Counted from the stretch's first letter, positions 18,183 through 49,736 are shown. The stretch: 64,000 bases of DNA from an uncultured Alphaproteobacteria bacterium (GCA_949282205.1 CASDOS010000034.1:5972-69971), one strand, 5' to 3'. Made by a program: numbers and translations. The notes: generated by a model from the letters alone, not told the origin.

Positions 18183-18710
18183 ATGAAAAAAATCCAAATA
18201 CACATTTCCGAAGAACCGCATTGTAAAGATTTAGAAAGTCTTGGTAGTATTTTTATGCCATTAGTAAGAGATATTATGTCTGCAGAAGATTTCGTGGAAG
18301 CAGATATTTTGTTGAATTGGAGAGAAATTGTAGGAGAAGATATAGCGGCCTATGCATATCCGATAAAAGTAAAATATAATCATAAAGAAAATATCAGAAC
18401 GCTATATATGGAGGTGCCGGTAGGAGGTTTTGCGCTGGAAATTCAACATAAAGAAGATTATTTGTTGGAAAAGTTAAATGCGTACTTTGGTTACAAGGCT
18501 GTCCATAAAATAAATATCAGCCAAAATATTAGGATAAGACCACAAATAAAGTCAACAAAAGGAACAAAAGAAAGAGTAAAATTAAGTGATACGGAAAAAA
18601 AGTATATAGAAAGTGTTGCTGATGGAATAAAAGACGATAAATTAAAGGAAATTTTAACAAAATTAGGTGAAAGTGTAGTATTATCAAATCGGGAGAGAAC
18701 AAAATGCTGA
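18183..18710 (+). CDS. DUF721 (DciA-like) protein
   Basis: 175 aa. The core W.EIVGEDIAAYAYPIKVKYN...LYMEV..GGFALEIQHKEDYLLEKLNAYFG matches the DUF721 pattern as I remember it. Confidence 0.6.
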   Translation: MKKIQIHISEEPHCKDLESLGSIFMPLVRDIMSAEDFVEADILLNWREIVGEDIAAYAYPIKVKYNHKENIRTLYMEVPVGGFALEIQHKEDYLLEKLNAYFGYKAVHKINISQNIRIRPQIKSTKGTKERVKLSDTEKKYIESVADGIKDDKLKEILTKLGESVVLSNRERTKC

Positions 18711-19417
18711 AAATAATTAAGCGAATAAGTCGAGCATTAGCCTTAGTAATTGTTTATATTATGTGTGCATACAGTTATTTGAGTGCAAAAGGATTTATTA
18801 TTAAAGACGGAATTCCTGTATTAAACAATACGGCACAAGCTGATACTGAATTTTCAGAAAAAGTAAGCGGAGATGTTCTTCTAAGTCCGTCACAAATGCG
18901 TGTAGAGGGAAAAGATAATGCCCCATTAACCATATATGCTTTTTCATCAATGGCGTGTTCACATTGCAGCGATTTTCATAATTACATATTGCCTAAAATA
19001 AGAAGAGATTTTATAGAAACGGGAAAACTTAAATACATATACGTTCATTTTCCGATAGATGCCGTATCAATGAGGGCAGCAAAGTTATCATACTGTCTAC
19101 CTCCTGAAAAATATGAAGGATTTATTTCCGCACTATATAAAAAGAAAGATTGGTTCTATTCAGGTAAGAAAGAAATTTTAAATAAGTATGCAAAAGAATT
19201 TGGAATGAGCGATGATGATATAAAAAAATGCGATGATGATAAAAAGCTAACCAGTGATATATTGATGACGTTTAATAATGCACTGAGGACATTTAACATA
19301 GAGGGGACGCCATCATTTATAATACAAGGCAAAGACGGAGAAGAATTGATAAAAGGATCCCGCAGTTATGATGATTTAAGAGATTATCTAAATAAGCGCC
19401 TATCGGGAGAAAAATAG
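18704..19417 (+). CDS. DsbA-family thiol:disulfide oxidoreductase
   Basis: N-terminal TM/signal anchor, CxxC active site (SMACSHCSDF), and a C-terminal GTPSFIIQG motif typical of DsbA-like thioredoxin folds. Confidence 0.8.
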   Translation: MLKIIKRISRALALVIVYIMCAYSYLSAKGFIIKDGIPVLNNTAQADTEFSEKVSGDVLLSPSQMRVEGKDNAPLTIYAFSSMACSHCSDFHNYILPKIRRDFIETGKLKYIYVHFPIDAVSMRAAKLSYCLPPEKYEGFISALYKKKDWFYSGKKEILNKYAKEFGMSDDDIKKCDDDKKLTSDILMTFNNALRTFNIEGTPSFIIQGKDGEELIKGSRSYDDLRDYLNKRLSGEK

Positions 19418-31823: not shown

Positions 31824-33281
31824 CTACTCCTGTATTTTTATTGTCCTAATAATAAAGGTATTTGGTTCTGTTAAAGAGAATACCGTATCAACCTTTTTGA
31901 AATCAACGCCGTTATTTGCAAAAATAGTATAAAGAAGATTTAAGCGTTTTCTTTGCAACTCAATGGAGGCTGTTGCATCCAAACGAATTTGAAGATAATA
32001 GCGTTTTTCTTTTGCTTTTTCGGAAAAGGCTTTAAGCCAGCGAAGTGTTTGTCCGGATATCTCGGCTCTGTCGGGCTGAAATGAAAGTTTGAGCTCTGAC
32101 GGAATTATTTTATTTTGAGCTTGTTCTTTCTGAGTTTCTTGAATTGTTTCATAAAAACTGACAAGAGCGTCATTTGACGACAAAGTAGCGGTGTTTGATT
32201 GTTCTCCTTGACTACTGTATGAAGGCTTGATCTTACTCTTTGGCTGTGCTGGTGTTGAAACTTCTTTTTTACTATCGGAAGGTGAAAACCAAGAGGAAAT
32301 GTTACTAAGGATACTCTTACTCTCTTTTGGAGTTGTAGACGTAGGTTTGGTATCTGGTATTTTCTTTGAAATGATTTTTAAAGATGAATTATCTTCTTGA
32401 GGAACGGCTAGGGGTTCTGGTGAAGACTTTTTCTTGCTTGTTTGAGATTTTTCTTTCTTTATTGTAGTGGTTTGAGGCTTGTTGGCAATAAAGGTTGGCG
32501 TTAAATTCTCATCATTTAATATTTCATCTGGGATAGGGAAAATGATGCTTTGTTTAATCCGCTCAGCTACTTTGTAAGATAAATCTTCCGTGTTGTTGGC
32601 TAATTGCTCTGGAGTGTCGTCAAAAAGAGAGTTTGTGTTATCGGAAGCGTACTGCTCCAATAACTTTTTGTTTTTTATGTGCTTACTTCCCTGAGCAACA
32701 ACCCAAGGTGAATCAAACGAATTGTCAATATTATCTACAGAGGTATCCGTTGGTAAAAGCGCAATTTGATTGTCTGTGTCACCGCTATAAGAAACTTCGG
32801 CATCATAAGAATAATTTTGCTGTTTTTCAAAATCTATAGGGATTGAGTTGTCAATATTAACACTAAGAATTTCATCATCTTCAGGACCGTCAATTTCTTG
32901 CGGAGAATAGATAATATCTGAATTCTCAGAGCTAATCTCGTTTTTTGTAGAAGGTAATTCGGCTAATTTTATTTCAGAGGATTGTGATGAAGATGACATG
33001 TTATCTTGCGATGGATGAATATCAAGCAAAGAATTTTTCTGAATTTCTGCAAAAGAAATATTTTTGAAAGCTGTATTATCGCTTTTAAAAAGTTCTATTT
33101 GAATACTGGAATGACTTGGGTAAACATGTGATATATGTGCAGAAGAGGCTAACAAATGACTGGTTAATGATACACCAACCAGAGATAATCCAAAGCCAAA
33201 AATAAAATTTTTAAATTCCCACATAAAGCACTTTCCGGACATAAATACTAAAATCAAAAGTATTAACCATATTTTAAACAT
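31824..33281 (-). CDS. membrane-anchored Ser/Thr/Pro-rich hypothetical protein, first gene of the minus-strand pilus operon
   Basis: 485 aa with N-terminal hydrophobic segment(s), a long low-complexity S/T/P/K region, and a structured C-terminal ~110 aa (LSFQPDRAEISGQTLRWLKAFSEKAKEKRYYLQIRLDATAS...). Confidence 0.6.
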   Translation of the reverse strand: MFKIWLILLILVFMSGKCFMWEFKNFIFGFGLSLVGVSLTSHLLASSAHISHVYPSHSSIQIELFKSDNTAFKNISFAEIQKNSLLDIHPSQDNMSSSSQSSEIKLAELPSTKNEISSENSDIIYSPQEIDGPEDDEILSVNIDNSIPIDFEKQQNYSYDAEVSYSGDTDNQIALLPTDTSVDNIDNSFDSPWVVAQGSKHIKNKKLLEQYASDNTNSLFDDTPEQLANNTEDLSYKVAERIKQSIIFPIPDEILNDENLTPTFIANKPQTTTIKKEKSQTSKKKSSPEPLAVPQEDNSSLKIISKKIPDTKPTSTTPKESKSILSNISSWFSPSDSKKEVSTPAQPKSKIKPSYSSQGEQSNTATLSSNDALVSFYETIQETQKEQAQNKIIPSELKLSFQPDRAEISGQTLRWLKAFSEKAKEKRYYLQIRLDATASIELQRKRLNLLYTIFANNGVDFKKVDTVFSLTEPNTFIIRTIKIQE

Positions 33282-37745: not shown

Positions 37746-38897
37746 ATGGTTAGAACAAAAGTTTTGGGTTTGATTATATTAAGTTGTGCCATAATGACAT
37801 GTAAACCCGCAAAAGCGTTTTGGCCTGTAATGGATTTTAGCGAAGTTCCGGTAATTATATCTAAAGTAACGACAGCACTTGATGCATTGGCAGAAAATAA
37901 AGAGCAATTAATGAAGATGAATGGCGCATTAGAAGCTATGGGAAAAAGTATAGATAATATTGCGCAATTTGGTCAAGATTTAAGGGGGCTTACAAAAGAT
38001 ATACAAGATGTCGCCAATAATACTGTTGATGGGGTGAATGAAAATTTGGGAACAGACATTGAAATTCCCGAAAGTGTAAATAACGGATTTACAGTAACAA
38101 ATGAGGCTTTGGGAGATGGATTAGGAGATATAGTTAATCAAACTCAAGATACGTTAAAATTCGGAGAAGATATAATAGATGAGAGCGCATCGGGAATTGA
38201 TACCGCCCAAAAAGGAGCAAATCAGGCCAACGAAGGACTGAAGAAGTTAGAAGAAAAGAATGAAGAAGAAAAAGCCAAGAGGGAAGAAAAACAAAGTCAG
38301 ACGGAAGAACCCGTAGAAGAGGAGGAAGAAGAGGAGGAAATTGCAGAGGATACAAACGACATCATGAAAGAAGAAATTATGGTAAACATTGATGCGTTTG
38401 AAAGTGAAAGTAAACAATTAATAGCACAAATGAACGATGTTTTAGATACGGCAATTAATACGCTGAATAAGTCAGCACAAAATACCCAAAAATTATTAGA
38501 TAATTTGGGAAAAACCGTAAGAGCAACAGAACAACTGGAAGAAAGCGATAAAGAAGCATTGCTCCAGAGAATAGAAAAATTAAAAACACAACATCGAAAT
38601 ATATCGGATAAAACAATAGCTATTGTTGAAAATGCAAAAGAAACTTATAACCAAGAGTATGAGGATAAACTCATAGATGGATTAGTAAATTATAGAAATA
38701 CGGTTGAGATGTATCTCAGAGGAGATATAAGTAAGGAGATTGTAATAAAAAAAGGCGAGGAACTGAAATTAGCCGTTAAGCAAATTGATACAACCATAGA
38801 TAAAGAAACATTAGAAATGCAAAATCAAGAAACAGAAAATATAAAAAAAGAAATAAAAGCAATAGCAGCAGAAATAGGCACAAAGAAAAAAAGGTAG
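37746..38897 (+). CDS. secreted acidic coiled-coil protein with VirB5/TrbJ-like N-terminus (array member 1)
   Basis: Signal peptide ...KPAKA, then FWPVMDFSEVPVIISKV. The protein is highly charged and helical and includes an E8 run. Confidence 0.6.
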   Translation: MVRTKVLGLIILSCAIMTCKPAKAFWPVMDFSEVPVIISKVTTALDALAENKEQLMKMNGALEAMGKSIDNIAQFGQDLRGLTKDIQDVANNTVDGVNENLGTDIEIPESVNNGFTVTNEALGDGLGDIVNQTQDTLKFGEDIIDESASGIDTAQKGANQANEGLKKLEEKNEEEKAKREEKQSQTEEPVEEEEEEEEIAEDTNDIMKEEIMVNIDAFESESKQLIAQMNDVLDTAINTLNKSAQNTQKLLDNLGKTVRATEQLEESDKEALLQRIEKLKTQHRNISDKTIAIVENAKETYNQEYEDKLIDGLVNYRNTVEMYLRGDISKEIVIKKGEELKLAVKQIDTTIDKETLEMQNQETENIKKEIKAIAAEIGTKKKR

Positions 38898-38969: not shown

Positions 38970-41153
38970 ATGATAACACGGATAATATCCAAAGCAGTAA
39001 AAGGGACAATGATAATAAGTCTTTGTCTGATTTTAAGTGTGCGCTCGGCAAAAGCCTTTGTTTGGCCTGTAATAGACTTAACGGAAATAGTTTCTTTTGT
39101 AAACAGTATTACGACGGGGCTAAACCAAGTAACAAATGCAAAGAGTCAATTAGATAATATAACGAACGTTGTAAAAACGATAGGAGATCAAGTTTCCTCC
39201 GTAAGAAAATATATGGCAGATTTAAAAGGCACAATAAAGAACATCAAGGACAATGTTGAAAGAATAACGACAAATATTAAAGATACGACAAATAATCTTG
39301 ATGACATAGCCTCAGACGTTAATAAGACTTTAGATGATGATTTAAATAAAGAGGAAGAGAATGCTGCAAATACAACAGAAGCGATAGAGGATCAGGTAGA
39401 TTCGGGAGCAACCGAGGAAGAAGTACAAGAAACATTAGATGAAGCAAAAGAAGAATCAGCAGCAAACAAAGAAGAAACAGATAAAGTGCTAGACAAAGCG
39501 GAAGAAACAATAAACGATTCTATGGAAAAAGCACAGACTGCTTTAGATATGTTAATGGATACAATAAATAAAAACGGTGATTTGAATGAAACCGATAAAA
39601 CAAGATTGAATGAAGAGGCAAATAGTATCAAAGAGGATATAGAAGACTTAAAAGAAACCGCCTCAAATGCAATAAGTAGTGTGAAAGAAGAATTTGATGC
39701 GCTTTATAGTGAAGAGATTTCAGCCGCATTTGATACATATAGTCAAGCAATAAGTGATTACTATGCTGGAAAAATAGATAGAGAAGGTCTAAGCAAAGCA
39801 GGCGAAACTTTCAAAACTGATATGTCGGGGTTAGAAGTAGGTATAGATACCAACATAATAGACAATATAGTAAAAAGCGCACAAGACATAGCAGGTAAAA
39901 TAGATGCATTTGAAGAAGATTTAATGAATAGCATAAGCAATTCAAAAGGATATTCAGATGGCAGTGAAGAAGCAAATTGCGAAAGACTAATAACAAGAAA
40001 ATATGCATTTAACTATGTTTCGGATTATGAGCATCAATTATTAAAAGGAGTATACGCCGATGATGCCGATAAAAGTTTTTTGCTATCAAAAGAATTGGCC
40101 TGTGACAATTTAGATGTTTCTAAAATAGAAGAAGATCCGAGTGATTTTAGAGAATGCGTAGTAAAGGCAAAAGCGGAAGTAGAATTATATCCGGATATAT
40201 ATGAAGAATCCCTCTACAAGGACTATCAAAAAGATGGTATATATAAGCATTTGCGTGAAGATTACAGTATAGCAAACATAGTAAGTGTCAGCAAAGCAAA
40301 ACAATTTTCAGCGACATGGGGTTCATTAGAACCGGACAATGATACCAATAAAGGAACATTGTATGTTTTAAGAAAGACATTAAAGGATGTAGATAATACC
40401 CGCGCCGGATATCAATTAATGGGAATGACGGATATAGAATCCCCTAAATTATGGAGTGAAATACGGAGAGTAGATGCTTTGAAACGCGCTAAAGGGGTAA
40501 TTCAAGATTTCGAAACAGGAATAACATTATATCTAGATGGTAGAGATGAAGATTTTGTAGAAGCAACAAATAAAAATTGGGGAACGATGCAAGCTGACGA
40601 CAGAGATAATGATGAGAGTGAAGCGGTAATAGACAAAGCTATTTTTTCGAATGTAATAATGTATAAATGTGGCTTAAGAGCAAAAGACATTTCGGTATCA
40701 GAAAAGAAAAAAGCAGATATGTCAGCGATAGCGGAAAAAGAAAAAAACATAGCAGATTGCTTATATAAATATGCATTAGAAGCCAGTAGAGGCTCAGAGA
40801 TAGAAAAGAAGGTCGGACGTGAAAATCAAAGAAAAGCCTATAATGACTCTGCATTTAACAATTTAACATTAGCGACAATAAATAATTACAAATCGAGTTT
40901 AGATTATGTAGATCCTGAGAAGTTACCAGATCCAAGCAAAGACAAGAACATAGTAAGTTTGCAAGACGGCTTAAAAGAAAGTACGACAACAAAAGATGAC
41001 TACTCTATTGGCGCGCAAATTAATTATTATACAACGCAGCAAATATTAAGTGTTGTTGATGCTGATGCACAAAATCAGCAAACAGAGATTTTAAAAGATA
41101 TAGAAACATTTAACTATAACTACTTTGGTCAACAAGAGGAAGGAGAAGTATAA
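38970..41153 (+). CDS. secreted acidic coiled-coil protein with VirB5/TrbJ-like N-terminus (array member 2)
   Basis: Signal peptide ...RSAKA, then FVWPVIDLTEIVSFVNSI, clearly paralogous to member 1. 727 aa with no internal TM. Confidence 0.6.
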   Translation: MITRIISKAVKGTMIISLCLILSVRSAKAFVWPVIDLTEIVSFVNSITTGLNQVTNAKSQLDNITNVVKTIGDQVSSVRKYMADLKGTIKNIKDNVERITTNIKDTTNNLDDIASDVNKTLDDDLNKEEENAANTTEAIEDQVDSGATEEEVQETLDEAKEESAANKEETDKVLDKAEETINDSMEKAQTALDMLMDTINKNGDLNETDKTRLNEEANSIKEDIEDLKETASNAISSVKEEFDALYSEEISAAFDTYSQAISDYYAGKIDREGLSKAGETFKTDMSGLEVGIDTNIIDNIVKSAQDIAGKIDAFEEDLMNSISNSKGYSDGSEEANCERLITRKYAFNYVSDYEHQLLKGVYADDADKSFLLSKELACDNLDVSKIEEDPSDFRECVVKAKAEVELYPDIYEESLYKDYQKDGIYKHLREDYSIANIVSVSKAKQFSATWGSLEPDNDTNKGTLYVLRKTLKDVDNTRAGYQLMGMTDIESPKLWSEIRRVDALKRAKGVIQDFETGITLYLDGRDEDFVEATNKNWGTMQADDRDNDESEAVIDKAIFSNVIMYKCGLRAKDISVSEKKKADMSAIAEKEKNIADCLYKYALEASRGSEIEKKVGRENQRKAYNDSAFNNLTLATINNYKSSLDYVDPEKLPDPSKDKNIVSLQDGLKESTTTKDDYSIGAQINYYTTQQILSVVDADAQNQQTEILKDIETFNYNYFGQQEEGEV

Positions 41154-41851
41154 TGAAAAAGAAGGTATGGGTAATTCTCTTTCTCTCAATGTTTGTATAT
41201 ACACGAGAAGCGTATGCAATATTTGATATTATGGCAACAGTTCAATCCATTCTGGAGCGTTACAAAGATGTCGAAAACAAGGTTCAGGAATATCAGAAAA
41301 AACTAAGAGATGTTGAAAAAAGAGCAAGGCAAGGGTTTGATTTAGCAAGCAATTGTTATAAAAATCCGACCAAATGTGATGCCAAAGCGATAGAGGCATT
41401 TAGCAAAGATTCTGAAAGCTACGTTAAAAGTTTAAAAGAAATAAAAGTAATGCCCGGCGCAGAAGAATTAAAAGAAGGCGATTTAAAGAAAAAGAGTGAC
41501 AGCAGCTTAGCGCAAACAGTAGAGAACGCGTACATATATAAGAGAGGTCAAGGACAAGATATAGAAAAGACAGCAGAAAATCGTCGATATTTAAATGCGA
41601 TAGTCGCGGATGATACGGCATTATTATTTGCAAAAGGGGTATCTGCGCGTCAAAGTATTTTAGTAGAAGATGGTTCACTTTATCAGTCAGAATTTAAGAA
41701 TGAGAATATGGATGAAATATTGAATGCGCAAAATATAGTAGCGATAGCTACGGAACAAAGATTAAATAGGATACTGGAAATGCGAGCATACATGACGAGT
41801 GCAGGATCGACAGCCGAATTAACACAACAAACCAGAGAAGCGGATGAATAG
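41153..41851 (+). CDS. VirB5/TrbJ-like protein (array member 3, canonical VirB5 size)
   Basis: 232 aa. Signal peptide ...REAYA, then IFDIMATVQSILERY, an all-helical charged body, and a TAATG overlap with member 2. Confidence 0.55.
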   Translation: MKKKVWVILFLSMFVYTREAYAIFDIMATVQSILERYKDVENKVQEYQKKLRDVEKRARQGFDLASNCYKNPTKCDAKAIEAFSKDSESYVKSLKEIKVMPGAEELKEGDLKKKSDSSLAQTVENAYIYKRGQGQDIEKTAENRRYLNAIVADDTALLFAKGVSARQSILVEDGSLYQSEFKNENMDEILNAQNIVAIATEQRLNRILEMRAYMTSAGSTAELTQQTREADE

Positions 41852-43208
41852 GAGAAGAACAATGAAGAAAGCGATATTAATCATCTGCATGACATTAGGT
41901 ATATATATAAGTAGCATACATCCAGCGCAAGCGTTAATAATAGATGCGTCGGCATTAGCAGCTAAGATTAGTGAATGGGTAGGCCGAATAGCTGATGCAA
42001 CAACAAAGATTTCCCAACAAGTATCACAAGTCAAGCAAATGAGTTCACAAGGATTTAACAAAGAAGAATTATACAATATAGCCGAAGAATACGCAACGGA
42101 ATATGGTAAAAACTTACTTCAAACTAAAATGAAAAAGGTTGTAGAAGGAACTAAAAAGAAGAATAAAGACAAGTTGGAAACAGATAAAGAAGCCTATGTA
42201 ACATCCAAAAATTTATACTACGATGAAAAGATAGCGATAATGGATGAAAGTATAAAAGAAACAGAAACGACCAAGACGCAAAAACAAAGTGAATTGATGT
42301 TAAAGAAAGCCGAGGTAAATCAGAAAAAAGACTATTATGAAAGTGTAAGAGGTCAGTTATCAATAGAAGCGCAAGCATATGATGAGTATATAAAAGCCGA
42401 GATGGAATATCAGGAATTAGAAACGGCATGCAAGGAATTAGATGAATTATTGCTGTCATTGGAAGCGCAGAAGAGTAAATTAGAAGAAGAAAAGGCGAAA
42501 GTAGGTACATCGGACGATCCGGAATATGTTTTATACGAAAAACGACTGGAAGAGATGGAACAAGAGATTGAAGAAGCCGATGGAGAAGGTGGAGCGGAAG
42601 ACATAGTAAATAAATCAGGCGGCAATGATGCTGAATGGGATGATGAAAACATTGTAAACAGTTTTTCGCCAACGGAAAAGGATTATACGGACTTTATAAA
42701 AAGATATTTTTACAATCCCGAAGATTTGTCAGCAAGCGGAAGCAATGCGCGAGTTGAAAATCAAACTAAAATAGATGCGGCAACACGAGAGCGTCGTTTC
42801 TTACTAGTAAACAGTGCTGCGCATTTATTACAAGTTTCCGCATCGTTAAGACGAGAAATTCCTGTTCGCAGTGAAATAATAGATGAGATGTTTCAAAATA
42901 CGCCTAAAGCGCCCGGAGAATTAGAAGCGATATCTTCATATTCGGCAACAAGAATAGAAAGTATGAAAGCTCTATTAATGTACGCAAAATTACAAAGTGC
43001 GAGATTACAATATATGGCAGCAAAGCAATTGCTAAAAACCAATGTTTCAAAAGTTCCGAACGGAGAATATTTGAAATTTGATTTAGAAAAATACATTCTG
43101 ACAAAAGAAGATGTTGATAATGCGATAGAAGAAGCAAATAAAACCAGTAAAAATATAGATGATACATTTAAAGTAAATGTGGGAGACTACCAATGGTTAA
43201 AGTATTAA
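41844..43208 (+). CDS. secreted coiled-coil protein with VirB5/TrbJ-like N-terminus (array member 4)
   Basis: Signal peptide ...HPAQA, then LIIDASALAAKISEWV. 454 aa, charged and helical. It overlaps member 3 by 8 nt. Confidence 0.55.
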   Translation: MNRRRTMKKAILIICMTLGIYISSIHPAQALIIDASALAAKISEWVGRIADATTKISQQVSQVKQMSSQGFNKEELYNIAEEYATEYGKNLLQTKMKKVVEGTKKKNKDKLETDKEAYVTSKNLYYDEKIAIMDESIKETETTKTQKQSELMLKKAEVNQKKDYYESVRGQLSIEAQAYDEYIKAEMEYQELETACKELDELLLSLEAQKSKLEEEKAKVGTSDDPEYVLYEKRLEEMEQEIEEADGEGGAEDIVNKSGGNDAEWDDENIVNSFSPTEKDYTDFIKRYFYNPEDLSASGSNARVENQTKIDAATRERRFLLVNSAAHLLQVSASLRREIPVRSEIIDEMFQNTPKAPGELEAISSYSATRIESMKALLMYAKLQSARLQYMAAKQLLKTNVSKVPNGEYLKFDLEKYILTKEDVDNAIEEANKTSKNIDDTFKVNVGDYQWLKY

Positions 43209-46200
43209 GAATGCTACAAAATCTGATCTTAGGTGTACTTATCTTAGGTTCAGGAATTCAAGAGGCCAAAGCATTTTTCTTATTGCCACCGATGCCATGG
43301 GATATAGAAGTGGATGTACCGGCCAATGCCAATAAGATAGTGTCCAATGCAAAAACACTATATCGTCAAGCTCAAACCATAAAGTCTGAATTAAACAGTC
43401 AGAAATTGGAAATTCTGAAAAAAGGACAAGCCTTTTTAAATACAAAATTTAAAAAACAAGAAGAAGGTGGAAAAAACAAAGCCCCGGGGAGAGGGGAGCT
43501 TCGCAATAGTAGTCTGCTGAAAATAACGGAACACGGATTGAATGAAGAGGAAAACTTCAACGCATTTCATACATTATTTTTGGTATATCCGCCCAAGAGT
43601 TCATATCCTGACAACTATCCGGCAGCCAAAGTTGCTTATATGCGTAAAGCTGATGAGTACAAGCAAGATGTGATTATGGAAACATACTTAACCGGTCGAG
43701 TAACAGAAAATTACCTAGCCTTAGTAGAAAAAACAATTGAGCGCTTAGATCACTGCCAAAAAGGCTTATACACCGAGGCGGAGATGGCTGAACATTGTGT
43801 GTTTTTCGGTTTACAAATGGCCTATGTGGAGCCGAAGAAAGAAAACCTAGACAATGAAGGAAGTCCGGAAGAGAGTACAAATCCCGGACAATATGGAGAA
43901 GTTCTGAATGCTTACATTGTAACAACCGTTTACGATAGGCTAATGCGTATCGTAGAGGATTTAACAGGTACGGAGGCTCAATTCATATCAGCGATACAAA
44001 TTGATAGTGTAGATCCGCTAGAGCCGGAGGAACAGAGTTCTGCGGAGGAATATATTGAAAAAGGATATAAGTTTGCATATAACGAGAGCAAGACATACGC
44101 TTTAGCGACAGGACAGATGTTGGGCGGAAATTATATTCGTAGTCAAGAGTGTGCAAACGGTGGAAAAAATTGTCCTGACGAGAACGAAGATGTAGCCGAG
44201 ATTAAAAATACGGATGACACGGCGATATTAGGTAAATTACTACCGATTGATGAGCAATTAAGAAATGCAATGAATTTGCACAATTTAAAATCAAAATTAG
44301 ACGAATATAAGACTCAATACAGAAAATACCTTAAATCAAAAGAAATACATGAAAGAATGATGAAGGTACTAAAGAAGAGTGAGGAAAGTGTAGTTAGTTT
44401 CTTAGATAGATACAGTGGCGGCAAGGGAGAAACGATTTGGTATAACGGAAATAAGCCGGCAAAAGTAAACGAGCACGAAAATCGCGGAGGTCTATCGAAA
44501 GAAGTAATTTTAGAATACCAAGAAGACACGACAGACAAGTTAATAGGTACGGATACTGGTGAGTGTGACGGATTTTATGAATCATGTCCGGATGGATATG
44601 AATTAGATAGTGGCAATCCATGCGTATATACAGATAATAATGGAAACAGCGTAACGAGCGCAACAATGTTTGCTTGTGTATTAAAAACCGTAACATCAGA
44701 CACCGATCCGGAGGGAGATCCGAAAGTTTCTTTTGAACCAAAATTAGAAGAAAACTACAGTATAGCGGGAGCGAACAATCAACGCGACTACAATGATACG
44801 GACTACTTTGAAGAAGGTAACCAAGCAGAAATCGTAGAAGTAGATAATCGTGTCAAAGCCGAGAAGAATTGGCGTATCGGCTATGATAAAATTATGAAAT
44901 TAACGGAAGATGGCACATTGAAATTTGAGCCGTGGAATGACCAGAAAAACCTACAAACAGAATATTTGCGCAACAAATATCGCAATATGAGAATGATAGT
45001 CAAAACAGCGGATCAAGGTCTATTATCGCAACGAGTAGCCAAAGTATTAGCTAATGAGAGCAAAAATATCGGCCCGATAGAAGAAGTATTACCAGCGGTA
45101 TCTGTCTGCAAATTAACGACAGACGCAACGGAAGATGCATTTAATCAAGACTGCTCAGACTATAGTGGTTCGTGCTCACAAGGAGGAGACACCGCATCGT
45201 GCTCTGGTACTAAGGTCCAACAATGCTATACATATGATTCGGAAGGAAATATAAGTTACTATTATGTGACATTATGGTGTAAAGTAGATGGTGATAACAA
45301 CACCGGAAAGATTAATGGTTACAAAGAAGTCGGATGCAGCAAGAGTACTGTCGGTATAAGTTACAGTCAGACGATTAAGAGTTTATCGGGAGGCTGCGAT
45401 TTCACAAAAGCCGGAAGTGATTATCACGCCGTCGAGGATACAAGTGAAACATGCCCGAGCAAATGGGATTTAACCACAAAATTCTTAGTACGCAGATACA
45501 TACCGGGTGTAACGGCAAGTTGGATAAATGGTGGCAGTTATGAATCCCAATGTCAGATGGATTTAGGAACAGAAACATTGGATAAAGAAAACACGCACTT
45601 ATATACAAATACCAACACAGCCGGAAGGGTTGTTGCCTCAGATCATTTCCAAGAGCTTATAGAAATGCGTAAAGAGCTTGAGAAAAAATTAAAAGCGATG
45701 GTTGATGAATATGAGAAGAGCATGCAAAGTCTAAAAGCAACGCTACGCGCAACAATTGCAAGCAGAAGTGAGTATGGTCAAAAACTAAGTGACAAGACGG
45801 ATGAAAAGAATGAGCTTGTGCAACAGCGCCAACGTTCATTAAAACGAGCAACGGCAATTATAGCGCAAATAGAAGAACTAAATACACGCGTCGAAGAATT
45901 GCAAGCACGTCTGGATGAAAGAAAGCCAACTCCCAAAAGTTTACAAAAGGAGATTGAATCACTAACAATTGGTGCCGGTGAAGATATGGATAAATTTGAA
46001 AATCCGACCTTAGCGCAGCGGATAGGACAGATTCCAGCCTTAAAAGAAGAGTTAGCTTTTATCTGTTACAAAGCACCGACAAACGACGATGATTATAAGG
46101 TATGCAAAGAATATAGTGGTACAGCTAATAAAGAAGAACCGTATGATGAAAATACGCGAGAAGAAGATAAATTCGAAAACGTAGCCGATTTACATACAAA

Positions 46201-48628
46201 AATTACTGCTAAAAACACGGAAATTGACAGTATATCCTCAATGATGCAAGTTCTTCAAGACAGGATAGATTCGTTAAATGAGCAAATAGAACAAAAGGCT
46301 CTCGCATTTGCGGATAATTATGTAAAAACATCAGAAGAAGGACAAAGAGCCCTTGAAGCTGCCAACCGAATATTTGAGAATAAATTGGAAATTAAAGAAG
46401 ATGGAGTTTCTGAACCGGACAGAATGGTCAGCAATAGCAGGGAATGGTGCAAAGGATATGGTCCTTTGGGAGTTATATGTCGAGATGGATACAGCCATGA
46501 ATATAAATATGACAATCTGAGTTGGACAATAGCCCGAGTAATGTATGGCAATGGCTCGGAGAATAGCGAAAGTGCCGTTGCCGGAGAATTACCGGAATTA
46601 GTCAAAAAAGGTATTGAAGACAGATGGTTTGCTGATGGTTCATGGTTAAGCTACGCGGCAAATAAACTGAGTAACGAAGGAAAAGTAGTCAGAAAATTTG
46701 TTGTAGAAGGAGGCTGCTTGGCACCATATGGTGTAGCAGATGGGCTATATACACCAACAACGCTGGCAAAAGCCATAAAAGAGAAATCCGTAGAAGAAGC
46801 GGTTGCTGATTTATCCATCGGAAGTGAAGCCTACATCAACAAAGCAGACAAGATCATTAAAGATGAAATAGACGCTGCGGTAGAAGAGATTACGGATGTG
46901 ATGGAATTATGGGGCGTAACCGGAGAAGAAGGCACAGAAGCCAATCCAGCCATTTTTGAGCATAGCAATTATGCTGACGATGGAGCGACAGAAGGGACGC
47001 AATCAGTAACGAAAACACACTATGAGTTGTTGGAGGACTTAAAGAAAGCCGAAAATCAAAGCATACTGGATGCAGCCAGCATTGAGTTAAAAGAAATCTT
47101 TGGTATGCCGGATTCTATTACGACGGACGTTGATTACTTTGCAGCTTTACCAGCAAGAGGATACTTTGCAGGCAAAGATACCTATGTACAATTTGGTCGT
47201 GATAATGAAAAATTTGTCTTTGACGAGAACGATGGTCGAGACTATCGAGCTCCGAGAAAACCATTAATGAACCTTGCGCCGATAAGAGAAGTATTTTACT
47301 TTAGCGCTCTTGATTATGATGACGTACCGCAAAAAGACGGAAAACCATCATTATCGGCATTAGTTGATGTAAAATACAAAAATGTAGACATAGCGAGTGC
47401 GAAAGAAGTAGAATATCTGCCGGAAGCATGGAGATATTTATTGGCGACACCAAATTTAAGAAAGGGACCGGAAAAATATCAACATACATTTGTTGAGCGT
47501 GACTATGGTTTGGATAAGTTGAAGAAATATCTAAACAATGAAAACATAGATGGAGCCAAAGAATGGCATTACCGCGCTATTATCGGAAGAGGCGGAGTAT
47601 ATCCGTGTAACTTAGGCGGCCGCGTCATAGATGTCGGAGGAGGCGATGGTGTTGGAGATATCCAATTTAAGCAAAGAAGCAATTTACCTTTCGATATATT
47701 GAAAGCGGAGGAGTGTCAGGAAGTTGAATCTTACAAAGGAGGCGTTCGGCAGTTATTGGCCGACCATGATACCAAAGATGACAGCAAGTCAAAAGCGCTT
47801 CAAGGAAGCCTGGGAGGTACAACAGAGCCGATGTACTTGAAGTATAGTGAATTAGGTCAATTCTTGAACGGAGACTTACAGTATCGTCCGATATTAAAGA
47901 ACATTTACGATTATTTACTAAGTGAAGATAATCAAGAAAATAACATAGAACGTCAACGTGCGGAAACAGCAGTGTTCAAACGTAATGTTATAGGTTCGTT
48001 TTTAGAGTCGGTAAATGCCGAGCATACGGCACTGAAGTCGCTGGAAAAGAATGAACAAGAAGCAAAAGATTCTCTGAAAAACTTGTGTATGCAACTTCAT
48101 AATTTCGATACAAGTGTCAATGGCGAGAGTTGTGAAGACAAAGAAGACAGCGAATGCATGGAAAGTATTGCGGAAGATTGTGCTGAATTCATAATGAAGA
48201 ACGGAGGTCTTGCAAAAGATTCGTTTGATGATAAATATGATGTGGACTGTGCACAATCGGGCTCAGGATCATATTATGAAACAATATTCTGCAAACTGAA
48301 TGATTTGAAGGATGAAGCAGTAAAGAAAGCAGAAGAAGGATACAGTGATGGAGAAAATGAATATGAGGGCTACAACGAAGTAAAAGGTATGGAAGGAAGC
48401 GAAAAGATAGAAGAACGTAAGAAGTTGATTGAGAACTATCTTGAAATCTTTAAGAAAACGGATGCCGATGAATTATCGTATGTACAGCCTGATGCGACAC
48501 CGGAAGAAGTAGCGGATGCCGTAGAAGAGGCCAAAGCAAACCGGGAAGCATCTCTTGATGCAACAGAAGAAGGTCTGACATCAATGGATAACCAAAGCCA
48601 AGCCGTACCATACGCGCCTGTATATTAA
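43193..48628 (+). CDS. giant (1811 aa) secreted protein with VirB5-like N-terminus, Cys-rich modules and coiled coils (array member 5)
   Basis: RBS GGGAGA. Signal peptide ...QEAKA, then FFLLPPMPWDIEVDV. Cys-rich clusters lie around nt 44550-45480, with a long coiled coil around 45650-46300. There is no TM apart from the signal peptide. Confidence 0.7.
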   Translation: MVKVLRMLQNLILGVLILGSGIQEAKAFFLLPPMPWDIEVDVPANANKIVSNAKTLYRQAQTIKSELNSQKLEILKKGQAFLNTKFKKQEEGGKNKAPGRGELRNSSLLKITEHGLNEEENFNAFHTLFLVYPPKSSYPDNYPAAKVAYMRKADEYKQDVIMETYLTGRVTENYLALVEKTIERLDHCQKGLYTEAEMAEHCVFFGLQMAYVEPKKENLDNEGSPEESTNPGQYGEVLNAYIVTTVYDRLMRIVEDLTGTEAQFISAIQIDSVDPLEPEEQSSAEEYIEKGYKFAYNESKTYALATGQMLGGNYIRSQECANGGKNCPDENEDVAEIKNTDDTAILGKLLPIDEQLRNAMNLHNLKSKLDEYKTQYRKYLKSKEIHERMMKVLKKSEESVVSFLDRYSGGKGETIWYNGNKPAKVNEHENRGGLSKEVILEYQEDTTDKLIGTDTGECDGFYESCPDGYELDSGNPCVYTDNNGNSVTSATMFACVLKTVTSDTDPEGDPKVSFEPKLEENYSIAGANNQRDYNDTDYFEEGNQAEIVEVDNRVKAEKNWRIGYDKIMKLTEDGTLKFEPWNDQKNLQTEYLRNKYRNMRMIVKTADQGLLSQRVAKVLANESKNIGPIEEVLPAVSVCKLTTDATEDAFNQDCSDYSGSCSQGGDTASCSGTKVQQCYTYDSEGNISYYYVTLWCKVDGDNNTGKINGYKEVGCSKSTVGISYSQTIKSLSGGCDFTKAGSDYHAVEDTSETCPSKWDLTTKFLVRRYIPGVTASWINGGSYESQCQMDLGTETLDKENTHLYTNTNTAGRVVASDHFQELIEMRKELEKKLKAMVDEYEKSMQSLKATLRATIASRSEYGQKLSDKTDEKNELVQQRQRSLKRATAIIAQIEELNTRVEELQARLDERKPTPKSLQKEIESLTIGAGEDMDKFENPTLAQRIGQIPALKEELAFICYKAPTNDDDYKVCKEYSGTANKEEPYDENTREEDKFENVADLHTKITAKNTEIDSISSMMQVLQDRIDSLNEQIEQKALAFADNYVKTSEEGQRALEAANRIFENKLEIKEDGVSEPDRMVSNSREWCKGYGPLGVICRDGYSHEYKYDNLSWTIARVMYGNGSENSESAVAGELPELVKKGIEDRWFADGSWLSYAANKLSNEGKVVRKFVVEGGCLAPYGVADGLYTPTTLAKAIKEKSVEEAVADLSIGSEAYINKADKIIKDEIDAAVEEITDVMELWGVTGEEGTEANPAIFEHSNYADDGATEGTQSVTKTHYELLEDLKKAENQSILDAASIELKEIFGMPDSITTDVDYFAALPARGYFAGKDTYVQFGRDNEKFVFDENDGRDYRAPRKPLMNLAPIREVFYFSALDYDDVPQKDGKPSLSALVDVKYKNVDIASAKEVEYLPEAWRYLLATPNLRKGPEKYQHTFVERDYGLDKLKKYLNNENIDGAKEWHYRAIIGRGGVYPCNLGGRVIDVGGGDGVGDIQFKQRSNLPFDILKAEECQEVESYKGGVRQLLADHDTKDDSKSKALQGSLGGTTEPMYLKYSELGQFLNGDLQYRPILKNIYDYLLSEDNQENNIERQRAETAVFKRNVIGSFLESVNAEHTALKSLEKNEQEAKDSLKNLCMQLHNFDTSVNGESCEDKEDSECMESIAEDCAEFIMKNGGLAKDSFDDKYDVDCAQSGSGSYYETIFCKLNDLKDEAVKKAEEGYSDGENEYEGYNEVKGMEGSEKIEERKKLIENYLEIFKKTDADELSYVQPDATPEEVADAVEEAKANREASLDATEEGLTSMDNQSQAVPYAPVY

Positions 48629-48646: not shown

Positions 48647-49405
48647 ATGGTCAATTTAATAAATCAAAAAATATTGCGTTTAACCGATAAAGCTCGGACG
48701 AAAGACGCGCCAGCTTTTATAACAGAAGATGTCATAGAAGTAAAAAGAGCAAAATTGATTTATTACAAATGGATAAGCAGGCTAATGGCCATATTAGCGA
48801 CAATATCTTTGCTATATGGGGTATGCACGACGCTTTCAATTTTAAAGTTAGCTCCTGAAATCGTAATAGATCCACAGTTATTTGTAGAATTATCAGATTC
48901 TCAATCAATGGTAAAACGCGAAAGAGTCGATCGCTGGATGGAATCTCGAGAAAAGATAATGATTAATTTTATGAAACAATATGTAGAGCTTCGCAACACA
49001 TACATAAAAGATGAAAAAGAAATGAACAATCGCTGGTTATGGGGTGGTTTAGTTTCATATTTATCAACATATCCTGTTTATAAGGAGTTTGAGAAAGTTT
49101 TTCCGAAATTAAAAGAAGAGATGGTAGAGAAAGAAAGTAGCCGCTCGGTAGAAATACTTTCGGTAGAGAGAACCGGAGGGGAGAACAGTAATACATGGAA
49201 GATAGAATTTAAGACATATGATTTTACCTTCAAGCAAAATAGGCTAAGCCGTCGAGCCAGTATTACCCCAACAATAGAAGAAAAATATTGGACAGCGAAC
49301 ATTCGCGGCTATGTAGATCCCAACAGGAGAACGGCATATCGTCGTCTATTAAATCCATTAGGATTTGTAATATACAGTTATTTTCAAAGTGAAATAGAGA
49401 TTTAA
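48647..49405 (+). CDS. virB8: type IV secretion protein VirB8, paralog 1
   Basis: 252 aa with a cytoplasmic N-terminus, a single TM (LMAILATISLLYGVCTTLSIL), then an NTF2-like region beginning NFMKQYVELRNTY. Confidence 0.8.
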   Translation: MVNLINQKILRLTDKARTKDAPAFITEDVIEVKRAKLIYYKWISRLMAILATISLLYGVCTTLSILKLAPEIVIDPQLFVELSDSQSMVKRERVDRWMESREKIMINFMKQYVELRNTYIKDEKEMNNRWLWGGLVSYLSTYPVYKEFEKVFPKLKEEMVEKESSRSVEILSVERTGGENSNTWKIEFKTYDFTFKQNRLSRRASITPTIEEKYWTANIRGYVDPNRRTAYRRLLNPLGFVIYSYFQSEIEI

Positions 49406-49547: not shown

Positions 49548-49736
49548 ATGTATAAAGCATTAGTTATAGGTTTTGGCATATTAATATTAGCTGCTTGTAA
49601 TTTAGTGGGAAGTTATTATGAGCCGGAACCCGTAGGTATAGGTAAAGATGTCTACGAATTAAAATTATCACCGTGTGCATGCATAGAAGTTGAATTACCC
49701 AAGACATTACCTGATTGGTTTAAGGCAATGAGTTAA
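49548..49736 (+). CDS. VirB7-like small lipoprotein
   Basis: 62 aa with RBS GAGGAG and lipobox ILAAC. It sits between two virB8 genes, upstream of virB9. Confidence 0.6.
   Translation: MYKALVIGFGILILAACNLVGSYYEPEPVGIGKDVYELKLSPCACIEVELPKTLPDWFKAMS

What the first reader, a model, noticed from the sequence alone, without database searches (positions are those of the whole stretch)
43193..48628. 1811-aa secreted giant with Cys-rich modules: candidate T4SS-associated adhesin
Seen in sequence: after the VirB5-like N-terminus, the protein contains dense Cys clusters, for example GECDGFYESCPDGYELDSGNPCVY and DCSDYSGSCSQGGDTASCSGTKVQQCYTYDSEGNISYYYVTLWCKVDG. It also has a ~200-aa coiled coil (ELIEMRKELEKKLKAMVDEYEKSMQSLKATLRA...) and a further Cys-containing acidic C-terminal region. 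Cys-rich extracytoplasmic modules are unusual in small AT-rich genomes and point to a disulfide-stabilised surface-exposed domain. A DsbA-like gene is present at 18704-19417.
Basis: partly seen in the sequence, partly recalled or inferred. Interest (0 to 1): 0.6.

Follow-up and report, generated by a model that had tools for sequence, protein, structure and literature searches.

The report
Giant secreted T4SS subunit with swappable modules
This 1811-residue exported, disulfide-bonded protein founds an unannotated family that is a fixed part of a type IV secretion machine in uncultured gut Alphaproteobacteria, and two of its modules are exchanged between otherwise identical strains, so it may be the part that touches the target.

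Summary
The ORF at 43193-48628 is real. It has a Shine-Dalgarno site, a Sec signal peptide and no other hydrophobic segment. It overlaps the upstream gene and ends 18 nt before virB8. Overall dN/dS is 0.06.

It has no Pfam, NCBIfam, PDB-sequence or Foldseek relative. Its family occurs only in gut and rumen Alphaproteobacteria MAGs, and always in the slot directly upstream of virB8-lipoprotein-virB8-virB9.

The "VirB5-like N-terminus" is not supported by any test. Total Cys content is ordinary (1.7% against 1.4% genome-wide). However, about 14 Cys positions are (nearly) invariant, and several pairs are lost or gained together, which fits disulfides. AlphaFold2 gives a confident beta-sheet module in the Cys-rich stretch and a folded C-terminal 780 residues with no detectable structural relative.

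Two strains whose T4SS loci are 99-100% identical over about 15 kb differ sharply at aa 650-700 (Cys-rich beta module) and aa 945-1014 (loop between two heptad segments).

Best reading: a T4SS accessory subunit docked through conserved N- and C-terminal parts, displaying recombination-swapped contact modules. This is an adhesin-like role by analogy with TraN or CagY, not by homology. Exposure and binding are inferred, not shown.

The parts
43181..43186 (+). Shine-Dalgarno GGGAGA, 6 nt upstream of the ATG. It lies inside the 3' end of the upstream gene (41844-43208), which overlaps the giant ORF by 16 nt.
   Evidence: Sequence read; ORF table.
43193..43273 (+). Sec signal peptide, aa 1-27 (MVKVLRMLQNLILGVLILGSGIQEAKA|FF). 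It has an AxA-type cleavage site and no lipobox.
   Evidence: A27 and F28 are nearly invariant in 40 homologues.
43274..44557 (+). Conserved, mostly helical N-terminal region, aa 28-455. It contains the invariant PPxP motif (P32, P33, P35), the Cys pairs 188/202 and 320/327, and long helices at aa 142-189, 233-269 and 343-408.
   Evidence: Alignments. AF2 model: pLDDT is 65-85 for the helices and below 40 for aa 28-100.
44558..44683 (+). Conserved four-Cys module, aa 456-497 (C458, C465, C477, C495), predicted as a beta-hairpin.
   Evidence: Cys conserved in 93-100% of 40 sequences. Strands at aa 469-480 and 486-497 with pLDDT 62-73.
44810..45112 (+). Highly conserved helical block, aa 540-640 (WRIG...PWNDQK..Q.EYLRNKYRNIRMI).
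   Evidence: Highest conservation of the N-terminal half (identity 0.67 over aa 561-600) and many invariant residues.
45107..45553 (+). Cys-rich module, aa 639-787, with 10 Cys. Its core is a five-strand beta-sheet at aa 658-725. The hypervariable cassette at aa 650-716 corresponds to 45140-45340.
   Evidence: - AF2 pLDDT is 86-94.
- C654, C696 and C754 are conserved; C639 and C735 are lost together; C661, C670, C678 and C715 are clade-specific.
- Nucleotide identity is 49% here between loci that are otherwise 100% identical.
- 10 of the 54 amino-acid differences from a 97%-identical strain fall in aa 676-710, P = 8e-8.
45629..45979 (+). First heptad (coiled-coil) segment, aa 813-929.
   Evidence: Heptad scan. 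Coiled-coil-type PDB noise hits over profile positions 816-1015. Helices at aa 793-829 in the AF2 model.
45980..46150 (+). Variable break between the heptad segments, aa 930-986. It carries the C958...C971 loop and an acidic linker, and is the least conserved stretch of the protein.
   Evidence: - Identity is 0.21 over aa 961-1000.
- Nucleotide identity is 40-56%, with indels, between otherwise identical loci.
- Amino-acid identity is 17-60% in P0005/P0006 and 43-50% in P0009/P0018.
- In the one close relative that has no Cys at 958 (P0021), the column of C971 is a gap.
46151..46387 (+). Second heptad segment, aa 987-1065.
   Evidence: Heptad scan gives aa 987-1046. AF2 gives a helix at aa 1031-1065.
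46388..48625 (+). Folded alpha/beta C-terminal region, aa 1066-1811. The most conserved core is aa 1278-1640 (47024-48112), with motifs LPARG, PLxNLxPxREVFYFS, EYLPExWRYLLAxPN and GVYPC. Cys pairs are 1086/1096, 1472/1508, 1632/1663, 1647/1655 and 1686/1700.
   Evidence: - AF2 mean pLDDT 77.9, pTM 0.54.
- No Foldseek hit in PDB or BFVD.
- Invariant residues listed; Cys covariation.
- A profile of this core finds only fragments of the same family.
48584..48625 (+). Conserved C-terminal tail, aa 1798-1811 (SMDNQSQAVPYAPVY). Y1807, P1809 are invariant and Y1811 nearly so. The tail is kept even in the 1410-aa distant subfamily (..APYCAVY).
41844..43208 (+). Upstream secreted 454-aa gene, the last of four secreted helical ORFs between virB4 and the giant. 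Its end overlaps the giant's start.
   Evidence: The same gene order is seen in L001-L003, L048 and L049.
48647..49405 (+). virB8 paralogue 1, starting 18 nt after the giant's stop. It is followed by a small lipoprotein gene, virB8 paralogue 2, virB9-SPOR, a beta-flower repeat giant, virB10 and virB11.
   Evidence: Pfam hits. Intergenic lipoprotein ORF. No + strand terminator-like site between 42522 and 51304.
18704..19417 (+). DsbA-like thiol-disulfide oxidoreductase. It is context: the genome has periplasmic disulfide-forming capacity.
   Evidence: PF13462, E 2.8e-29; PF01323, E 2.1e-6.

Best explanation
The gene encodes an exported, disulfide-bonded accessory subunit of a chromosomal, rvh-like (P-type) type IV secretion system.

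Shown:
- It is co-encoded with the machine and is translationally coupled to the gene upstream.
- It is conserved in position across the whole bacterial family.
- It is under strong purifying selection.
- It carries a Sec signal peptide and no membrane anchor.
- Its conserved Cys behave as disulfide pairs.
- It contains confidently predicted folded modules.

Inferred:
- The N-terminal third (aa 28-640) and the C-terminal third (aa 1280-1811) are conserved, and are 100% identical between close strains. They probably form the base that docks on the T4SS.
- The middle third probably projects outward. It consists of the Cys-rich beta module (aa 650-716), two heptad segments, and the disulfide-closed variable loop between them (aa 930-986).
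- Recombination replaces this middle third in blocks. That is the behaviour expected of a part that contacts a variable partner, such as a target-cell receptor, host factors, antibodies or phages.

Functionally it would then be the target-contact or adhesion element of the machine.
For: Gene reality and operon membership:
- Shine-Dalgarno site, a 16-nt overlap with the upstream gene, and an 18-nt gap to virB8.
- No + strand terminator-like site between 42522 and 51304.
- dN/dS is 0.06 against a 97%-identical strain.

Fixed T4SS component:
- The gene order is identical in L001 (a 23%-identical, 1410-aa relative), L002/L003, L048 and L049.
- 37 genome loci were found, all in gut or rumen Alphaproteobacteria MAGs.
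- 19 of 19 genomes of the genus carry a single copy, and 100 of 151 genomes of the order have a match.
- 216 clusters at 50% identity were found, and all members are large proteins or fragments.

Export and disulfides:
- Signal peptide and no TM segment.
- Cys 188/202, 458/465/477/495, 696, 1472/1508 and 1632/1663 are invariant or nearly so.
- C639 and C735 are absent from exactly the same sequences. C1686 and C1700 are lost largely together, and C1647 and C1655 largely occur together.
- A DsbA-like gene is present.

Folded modules:
- pLDDT of about 90 for the beta-sheet at aa 658-725.
- The C-terminal 782 aa have pLDDT 77.9 and pTM 0.54.

Swappable modules:
- L048 and L049 are 99-100% identical in nucleotides over about 15 kb, apart from the first VirB5-like gene (89-97%) and giant aa ~550-1300 (85-96%). 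That tract includes 49% at aa 650-700 and 40-56% with indels at aa 945-1014.
- Identity in the cassette is decoupled from identity in the backbone, for example 51% against 97%.
- A second strain pair shows the same pattern.
- 10 of the 54 substitutions between the window and L006 fall in aa 676-710, P = 8e-8. There dN/dS is 0.42 against 0.04-0.05 elsewhere.
Against:
- Location beyond the periplasm is not shown. There is no outer-membrane anchor, lipobox or known surface-display domain.
- dN/dS never exceeds 1. The raised dS in the cassette (0.68 against 0.23) points to imported alleles, not to demonstrated positive selection.
- Variability alone could also reflect relaxed constraint or co-variation with another machine part.
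- The AF2 model of the N-terminal part is of low overall confidence (pLDDT 63.6, pTM 0.30).
- Residues 831-1029 were not modelled, so the helical-hairpin geometry is a guess.
- No multimer prediction could be run, so the docking partners are unknown.
Confidence: 0.5

Rival explanations
1. It is a purely periplasmic scaffold of an oversized T4SS. In this reading it forms a stalk, cylinder or ring component that helps span or widen the envelope in a machine whose VirB10 and VirB9 are also greatly enlarged. It has no role in target contact.
For: - Sec export without any outer-membrane targeting feature.
- The gene lies directly beside virB8, virB7-like and virB9 genes.
- The same machine has a 2100-aa plus 1456-aa beta-flower VirB10 and a VirB9-SPOR fusion.
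- Some orthologues carry weak beta-flower-like inserts, as VirB10 does.
- Expanded systems such as Cag and Dot/Icm have system-specific periplasmic or outer-membrane-complex proteins (established knowledge; review PMC12857230).
Against: Block replacement of two modules between strains whose neighbouring T4SS genes are 100% identical is hard to explain for a buried scaffold, because its partners did not change. The hot spots are a beta-hairpin region and a loop between heptad segments, which look like solvent-exposed tips.
Confidence: 0.22
2. It is a true but hugely enlarged VirB5 homologue. In this reading it assembles with the four upstream secreted proteins on the VirB6 platform and ends up at the pilus tip.
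For: - It lies in the virB4-virB8 interval, downstream of ORFs of which one (727 aa) gives a weak, in-register PF07996 match (E 0.07; hhalign probability 5%).
- It has a signal peptide followed by a conserved Pro/Asp-containing N-terminal motif.
- Three long helices are predicted in aa 142-408.
- A tandem array of five or six VirB6-like polytopic ORFs lies elsewhere in the genome. VirB5 and VirB6 form pentamers in R388 (PMC9259494).
Against: - No PF07996 signal at E<=10.
- hhalign of the family's N-terminal profile against a VirB5 alignment gives probability 0.1%.
- No BLAST similarity to the four upstream ORFs.
- No Foldseek hit to TraC, CagL or TrwJ.
- An exhaustive HMM search with the N-terminal profile listed no proteins of VirB5 size among the best 150 hits, apart from what look like fragments of this family.
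- The distant relative's locus has only three ORFs before the giant, not four.
Confidence: 0.1
3. It is a Sec-exported cargo, a toxin or effector, that the T4SS releases from the periplasm in two steps. Pertussis toxin is exported this way by the Ptl system.
For: - A signal peptide combined with T4SS linkage.
- A highly conserved C-terminal domain with many invariant polar residues (H1276, R1322, R1365, E1366, E1435, R1466, D1480) and no detectable structural relative. That domain could be catalytic.
- An invariant C-terminal tail that could be a recognition signal.
Against: - The gene sits in the middle of the structural operon and is translationally coupled on the upstream side.
- It is single-copy and universal in the lineage, with strict synteny, unlike typical cargo genes.
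- A VirD4 coupling protein exists in the genome, so a cytoplasmic route for substrates is available.
- No toxin or enzyme family matches.
Confidence: 0.1

Closest known systems
TraN of F-like conjugative systems (mating-pair stabilisation protein, Pfam PF06986)
   Same: - It is a Sec-exported accessory protein encoded within T4SS genes.
- It has many conserved Cys presumed to form disulfides.
- It has conserved flanks around a variable central region, which in TraN decides which recipient surface protein is bound (established knowledge).

The giant shows the same logic: conserved ends and a swappable Cys-rich beta module.
   Different: - There is no sequence match to PF06986.
- The giant is three times longer.
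- It belongs to a P-type/rvh-like operon, not an F-type operon.
- It contains long heptad segments and a 780-aa C-terminal region with no detectable structural relative.
- Outer-membrane location is unproven.
VirB5 / TraC / TrwJ / CagL pilus-tip proteins (Pfam PF07996)
   Same: It is secreted through Sec, encoded after virB4, largely helical, and proposed to mediate contact with the target.
   Different: - No HMM, profile-profile or fold match was found.
- It is 1811 aa, against about 220-260 aa for VirB5 proteins.
- Only the neighbouring 727-aa ORF shows even a weak VirB5 signal; the 383-aa ORF is its paralogue.
CagY (VirB10 homologue of the Helicobacter pylori Cag T4SS)
   Same: It is a very large T4SS component whose internal region is remodelled by recombination between strains while the rest is conserved (established knowledge). 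Here the middle third is replaced in blocks.
   Different: - CagY is a VirB10 homologue with tandem repeats and membrane anchoring.
- The giant has no TrbI/VirB10 domain, no TM segment and no tandem repeats.
- Its variation comes from allelic cassette replacement, not from changes in repeat number.
Bartonella Trw T4SS variable TrwJ/TrwL copies
   Same: In both, sequence-variable exposed T4SS parts are thought to adapt binding to different targets (review PMC12857230).
   Different: In Trw the variation comes from tandem gene amplification of small VirB5 and VirB2 genes. Here a single giant gene carries internal cassettes.

Membership tests
VirB5/TraC/TrwJ (PF07996) | Significant match to the family HMM | tested here: not met
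   No hit for the whole protein at E<=0.01. No hit for aa 1-460 of this protein or of two distant orthologues at E<=10.
VirB5/TraC/TrwJ (PF07996) | Profile-profile similarity to bona fide VirB5 proteins | tested here: not met
   hhalign of the N-terminal family profile A4 against VirB5 alignment A6 gives probability 0.1%. The single sequence gave no in-register alignment. Caveat: A6 is a narrow profile (11 Roseobacter-type sequences plus 1 other), and the positive-control ORF (727 aa) reached only probability 5%.
VirB5/TraC/TrwJ (PF07996) | Three-helix-bundle fold with a globular appendage (TraC 1R8I, CagL 3ZCI, TrwJ in the R388 structure) | tested here: inconclusive
   Foldseek against PDB gave no hit with E<0.1. 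However, the N-terminal model has pTM 0.30, so helix packing is unreliable.
VirB5/TraC/TrwJ (PF07996) | Sec signal peptide and a gene position after virB4 in a P-type operon | tested here: met
TraN (PF06986) | Match to the TraN HMM | tested here: not met
   No Pfam hit at E<=0.01.
TraN (PF06986) | Encoded in an F-type (TraC/TraU/TraH/TraG) transfer region | tested here: not met
   The operon is VirB2-3-4 ... VirB8-7-8-9-10-11.
TraN (PF06986) | Conserved Cys framework with a variable central specificity region | tested here: met
   Conserved and covarying Cys. Hypervariable cassette at aa 650-716. Receptor specificity itself is not testable here.
Core component of the rvh-like T4SS of gut Alphaproteobacteria (the family defined here) | Full-length homology and a position directly upstream of virB8-lipoprotein-virB8-virB9 | tested here: met
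   52 homologues, most matching over the full length, at 30-77% identity. Synteny confirmed. 37 genome loci found.
Disulfide-bonded extracytoplasmic protein | Export signal plus an even set of conserved Cys that covary in pairs | tested here: met
   The chemical state of the Cys cannot be tested with these tools.
Surface-exposed adhesin | Demonstrated location on the cell surface or pilus, and binding to a target | not testable with these tools
   There is only indirect support from cassette hypervariability.

The most novel reading that the evidence does not exclude
The giant, the four upstream secreted helical proteins and the separately encoded array of VirB6-like paralogues together form a heteromeric stalk or tip assembly not seen in any solved T4SS. 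In this reading the giant supplies a rigid helical arm, and its disulfide-closed tip loop and Cys-rich beta module are exchangeable receptor-binding cassettes. Target specificity of a core, chromosomal secretion machine in small-genome gut Alphaproteobacteria would then be re-programmed by homologous recombination within a single gene.
Probability: 0.2. Interest if true: 0.8.

Novelty: new variant of a known kind. Interest (0 to 1): 0.58.

Why it matters
These uncultured Alphaproteobacteria have genomes of 1.3-1.9 Mb and are found in human, rodent and ruminant guts. They keep this elaborate T4SS as a chromosomal, origin-proximal, lineage-wide feature, yet nothing is known about what it targets.

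This protein is the largest unexplained part of the machine and the one that varies between near-identical strains. That makes it the most direct handle on the system's specificity: host cell, other bacteria or DNA uptake.

It also supplies two confidently folded regions with no detectable structural relative, and a natural set of swapped cassettes that can be tested for binding. For T4SS biology it would add a third way of diversifying the contact surface. The known ways are gene amplification (Trw) and repeat recombination (CagY).

Tried and rejected
- Pfam and NCBIfam scans of the whole protein gave nothing except a coiled-coil artefact, TrlF, at E 0.0015.
- An hmmsearch of PDB sequences with the family profile gave only tropomyosin/Rad50-type coiled-coil noise.
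- Foldseek of both AF2 models against PDB, and of the C-terminal model against BFVD, gave no hit with E<0.1.
- VirB5 homology was rejected.
- Paralogy with the four upstream ORFs was rejected. BLAST shows only the 383-aa and 727-aa ORFs related to each other.
- There is no paralogue elsewhere in the genome (tblastn).
- A VirB6 role was rejected because the protein has no TM segments. VirB6-like polytopic ORFs lie on contig C17.
- A search for the C-terminal core as a stand-alone small protein found only fragments of the same family.
- Region-level positive selection was not found.
- A search of the own genome with PF07996 gave one weak, partial, unrelated hit.
- Literature searches found no description of a T4SS in these bacteria. 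The terms 'RF32' and 'type IV secretion' together returned 0 papers.

Full report
**Observation.** The + strand ORF at 43193-48628 encodes 1811 residues. A GGGAGA Shine-Dalgarno site lies 6 nt before the ATG. The start overlaps the end of the upstream gene (41844-43208) by 16 nt, and virB8 begins 18 nt after the stop. No + strand terminator-like site lies between 42522 and 51304. The first 27 residues form a typical Sec signal peptide (..QEAKA|FF), and no other segment is hydrophobic enough for a membrane helix.

The protein has 31 Cys, or 1.7%. That is unremarkable for this genome: long ORFs average 1.4%, which places the protein at the 69th percentile. The densest cluster, 10 Cys within aa 638-787, is only moderately unusual, since 52 of 5000 shuffles reach it. 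The "~200-aa coiled coil" is really two heptad segments, aa 813-929 and 987-1046. A Pro/Gly-containing, acidic stretch carrying C958 and C971 separates them. The DsbA-like gene at 18704-19417 is confirmed.

**Context.** The gene lies in a P-type T4SS operon with this order:
- three VirB2-like pilins, VirB3 and VirB4;
- four secreted helical ORFs of 383, 727, 232 and 454 aa;
- the giant;
- VirB8, a 62-aa lipoprotein and a second VirB8;
- a VirB9-SPOR fusion, a 2100-aa beta-flower repeat protein, a VirB10 with the same repeats, and VirB11.

The operon ends after virB11. It is followed by yihA, yidC, rnpA, recF, dnaN and dnaA, so it is chromosomal and near the origin. VirB6 is not missing from the genome. 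A tandem array of five or six polytopic ORFs with weak TrbL/VirB6 matches lies on another contig (C17:1765-10499), and a VirD4 lies on C50. The virB8-lipoprotein-virB8-virB9-virB10-virB11 order and the array of VirB6 paralogues recall the Rickettsiales rvh system (my knowledge of PMC2653234, which appeared but which I did not read).

**Family and distribution.** The protein has no Pfam or NCBIfam family. A word-indexed search found 52 homologues, most of them full-length (about 1650-2030 aa) at 30-77% identity, plus a 1410-aa relative at 23%. Only two carry any name, 'hypothetical protein' from Alphaproteobacteria MAGs. An exhaustive HMM search with the N-terminal profile found 216 clusters at 50% identity. 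All the listed hits are large proteins or short sequences that look like fragments, and a second tier of 1250-1460-aa proteins is visible.

In species-representative genomes the gene occurs only in uncultured Alphaproteobacteria from human, mouse, deer, buffalo and rumen samples. Within the order, 100 of 151 genomes match a profile of the C-terminal core. These include 19 of 19 genomes of the same genus, each with a single gene of about 1700-1990 aa (one is truncated at 872 aa). In every locus I opened, including the most distant one, the gene sits directly upstream of virB8-lipoprotein-virB8-virB9. It is therefore a fixed component of this machine and not a passenger.

**Is it a real, constrained protein?** Against a 97%-identical strain (L006), dN/dS is 0.06 overall and at most 0.13 for any region of 50-250 codons.

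**Cysteines.** In a 40-sequence alignment, C188, C202, C465, C495, C696, C1472, C1508, C1632 and C1663 are invariant. C320, C327, C458, C477, C654 and C754 are present in at least 93%. More telling is that Cys come and go in pairs:
- C639 and C735 are replaced in exactly the same eight sequences.
- C1686 and C1700 are lost largely together.
- C1647 and C1655 are present largely together.
- C661, C670, C678 and C715 form a clade-specific extra set.
- C958 and C971 are both present in the close relatives; in P0021, which has no Cys at 958, the column of C971 is a gap.
- The one Cys unique to this sequence (C1175) explains the odd total.

Paired gain and loss is what disulfide partners do. Together with Sec export and a DsbA-like gene, it supports an oxidised extracytoplasmic protein.

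**Structure.** AlphaFold2 with a 43-sequence alignment gave a mixed result for aa 28-830, with mean pLDDT 63.6 and pTM 0.30:
- The first ~75 residues of the mature protein are unconfident.
- Three long helices (aa 142-189, 233-269, 343-408) reach pLDDT 65-85.
- The four-Cys module forms a beta-hairpin at aa 469-497.
- The Cys-rich stretch forms a five-strand beta-sheet at aa 658-725 with pLDDT 86-94.

The C-terminal part, aa 1030-1811, is predicted better, with mean pLDDT 77.9 and pTM 0.54. It is a mixed alpha/beta structure. Foldseek found no hit with E<0.1 in PDB for either model, or in BFVD for the C-terminal model. The PDB sequence profile search gave only coiled-coil noise. A profile of the most conserved core (aa 1278-1640) finds only fragments of the same family.

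**VirB5 claim.** The giant gives no PF07996 signal even at E<=10, and neither do two distant orthologues. I built a VirB5 alignment from two genomic VirB5 genes and ten database homologues. hhalign against the giant's N-terminal family profile gave probability 0.1%. The single sequence gave no in-register match. BLAST shows no similarity to the four upstream ORFs; only the 383-aa and 727-aa ORFs are related to each other. The 727-aa ORF does give a weak, in-register VirB5 signal (E 0.07; probability 5%). Any VirB5 ancestry in this interval therefore belongs to the neighbours and not to the giant. The VirB5 profile was narrow, so this test is not exhaustive.

**Variation.** This is the most informative result.
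- P0005 and P0006 are 100% identical over aa 1-390 and aa 1293-1811. They are only 40-63% identical over aa 634-700 and 17-60% over aa 935-1020.
- At the DNA level their loci (L048, L049) are 99-100% identical across about 15 kb of T4SS genes, with two exceptions. One is the first VirB5-like gene, at 89-97%. The other is a tract covering giant aa ~550-1300, at 85-96%, which contains two hot spots: 49% identity at aa 650-700, and 40-56% with indels at aa 945-1014.
- A second pair (P0009, P0018) is identical except at aa 31-60, aa 837-900 and aa 955-1000.
- Cassette identity is decoupled from backbone identity. For example, the window's cassette is as close to P0014 (57%, backbone 54%) as to its nearest relatives (46%, backbone 78%).
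- Between the window and L006, 10 of 54 amino-acid differences fall in aa 676-710 (binomial P = 8e-8). There dN/dS is 0.42 against 0.04-0.05 elsewhere, and dS is also raised (0.68 against 0.23). This points to imported sequence and not to in-situ positive selection.

The answer to the proposed diversifying-selection test is therefore that no region has omega above 1, but localised, recombination-driven replacement of two modules is clear.

**Interpretation.** The conserved N-terminal and C-terminal thirds, which are identical between close strains, most likely form the part that docks on the conserved machine. The middle third is the variable, probably projecting part. It consists of the Cys-rich beta module, two heptad segments, and the disulfide-closed acidic loop between them. 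If the two heptad segments pair as a hairpin, the loop would be the most distal point. That geometry is a guess, because aa 831-1029 were not modelled. Block exchange of solvent-exposed modules while every neighbouring gene stays identical is what one expects of a surface that meets a variable outside partner.

My preferred explanation (confidence about 0.5) is an exposed contact or adhesion subunit of the T4SS. It would work like TraN, VirB5/CagL or the variable region of CagY, but it is homologous to none of them. The rivals are:
- a buried periplasmic scaffold of this oversized machine (0.22);
- a truly VirB5-derived tip protein (0.10);
- a Sec-exported cargo released in two steps, as pertussis toxin is by Ptl (0.10).

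**Novelty and verdict.** The kind of thing, a T4SS-encoded secreted accessory or adhesin with a variable specificity region, is known. This family, its size, its folds and its mode of variation are not described in the libraries or papers I could search. Earlier notes of this scan on orthologues in other genomes reached similar conclusions. I re-derived the block-swap claim independently on different strain pairs. I rate it a new variant of a known kind, of moderate to good interest. It is a concrete, testable handle on what a core secretion machine of uncultured gut Alphaproteobacteria recognises. Location and binding remain unproven.

Noticed in passing
genome contig C17:1765-10499 (outside the window): A tandem array of five or six polytopic membrane ORFs (461, 473, 455, 188/348 and 1033 aa). 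Two of them give weak TrbL/VirB6 matches (E 1e-4 and 1e-3). This is a VirB6 paralogue array encoded away from the main operon, reminiscent of the Rickettsiales rvhB6a-e genes. It shows that VirB6 is not absent from this system.
   Followed up: partly
window 37746-38897 (383-aa ORF); L048:319-1548 vs L049:4502-5695: The first secreted VirB5-like gene after virB4 is the only other part of the ~15-kb T4SS locus that differs (89-97% nucleotide identity) between two strains that are otherwise 99-100% identical. It may be a second variable, exposed component.
   Followed up: partly
window 38970-41153 (727-aa ORF): Its N-terminus gives a weak PF07996 (VirB5) match that starts right after the signal peptide (E 0.07; hhalign aligns AFVWPVID with AQGVPTFD). 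The 383-aa ORF is its paralogue (BLAST E 5e-20). These two ORFs, and not the giant, are the VirB5 candidates of this operon.
   Followed up: partly
orthologues P0028 aa 1300-1397, P0038 aa 1216-1260, P0049 aa 1329-1379; also P0085, P0113: Some orthologues of the giant carry inserts with sub-threshold matches to the beta-flower repeat (PF21785). This is the repeat that fills the 2100-aa protein and the VirB10 of this operon, which suggests the repeat moves between components of the same machine.
   Followed up: partly
genome contig C34:69186-79000 (just beyond the window's 3' end): The T4SS operon ends with virB11 and abuts yihA, yidC, rnpA, gpsA, recF, dnaN and dnaA. The machine is therefore chromosomal and lies next to the replication origin region. 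No relaxase or virD4 is adjacent; a VirD4 lies on contig C50:59626-61218.
   Followed up: partly
window 49548-49736: A small lipoprotein ORF (MYKALVIGFGILILAAC...) lies between the two virB8 paralogues, in the position of virB7. It is conserved at 59-62 aa in L001, L002, L048 and L049.
   Followed up: no
window 43283-43372 (aa 31-60 of the giant): In one strain pair (P0009/P0018) the segment just after the signal peptide is also replaced (67% identity against 100% on both sides), although the PPMPWD motif before it is invariant. This may be a third small variable patch.
   Followed up: no
window 31824-33281 (- strand): A 485-aa ORF with an N-terminal hydrophobic segment and a long Ser/Thr/Pro/Lys-rich low-complexity middle lies immediately upstream of the pilin genes and is divergently oriented. 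It has no Pfam hit.
   Followed up: no
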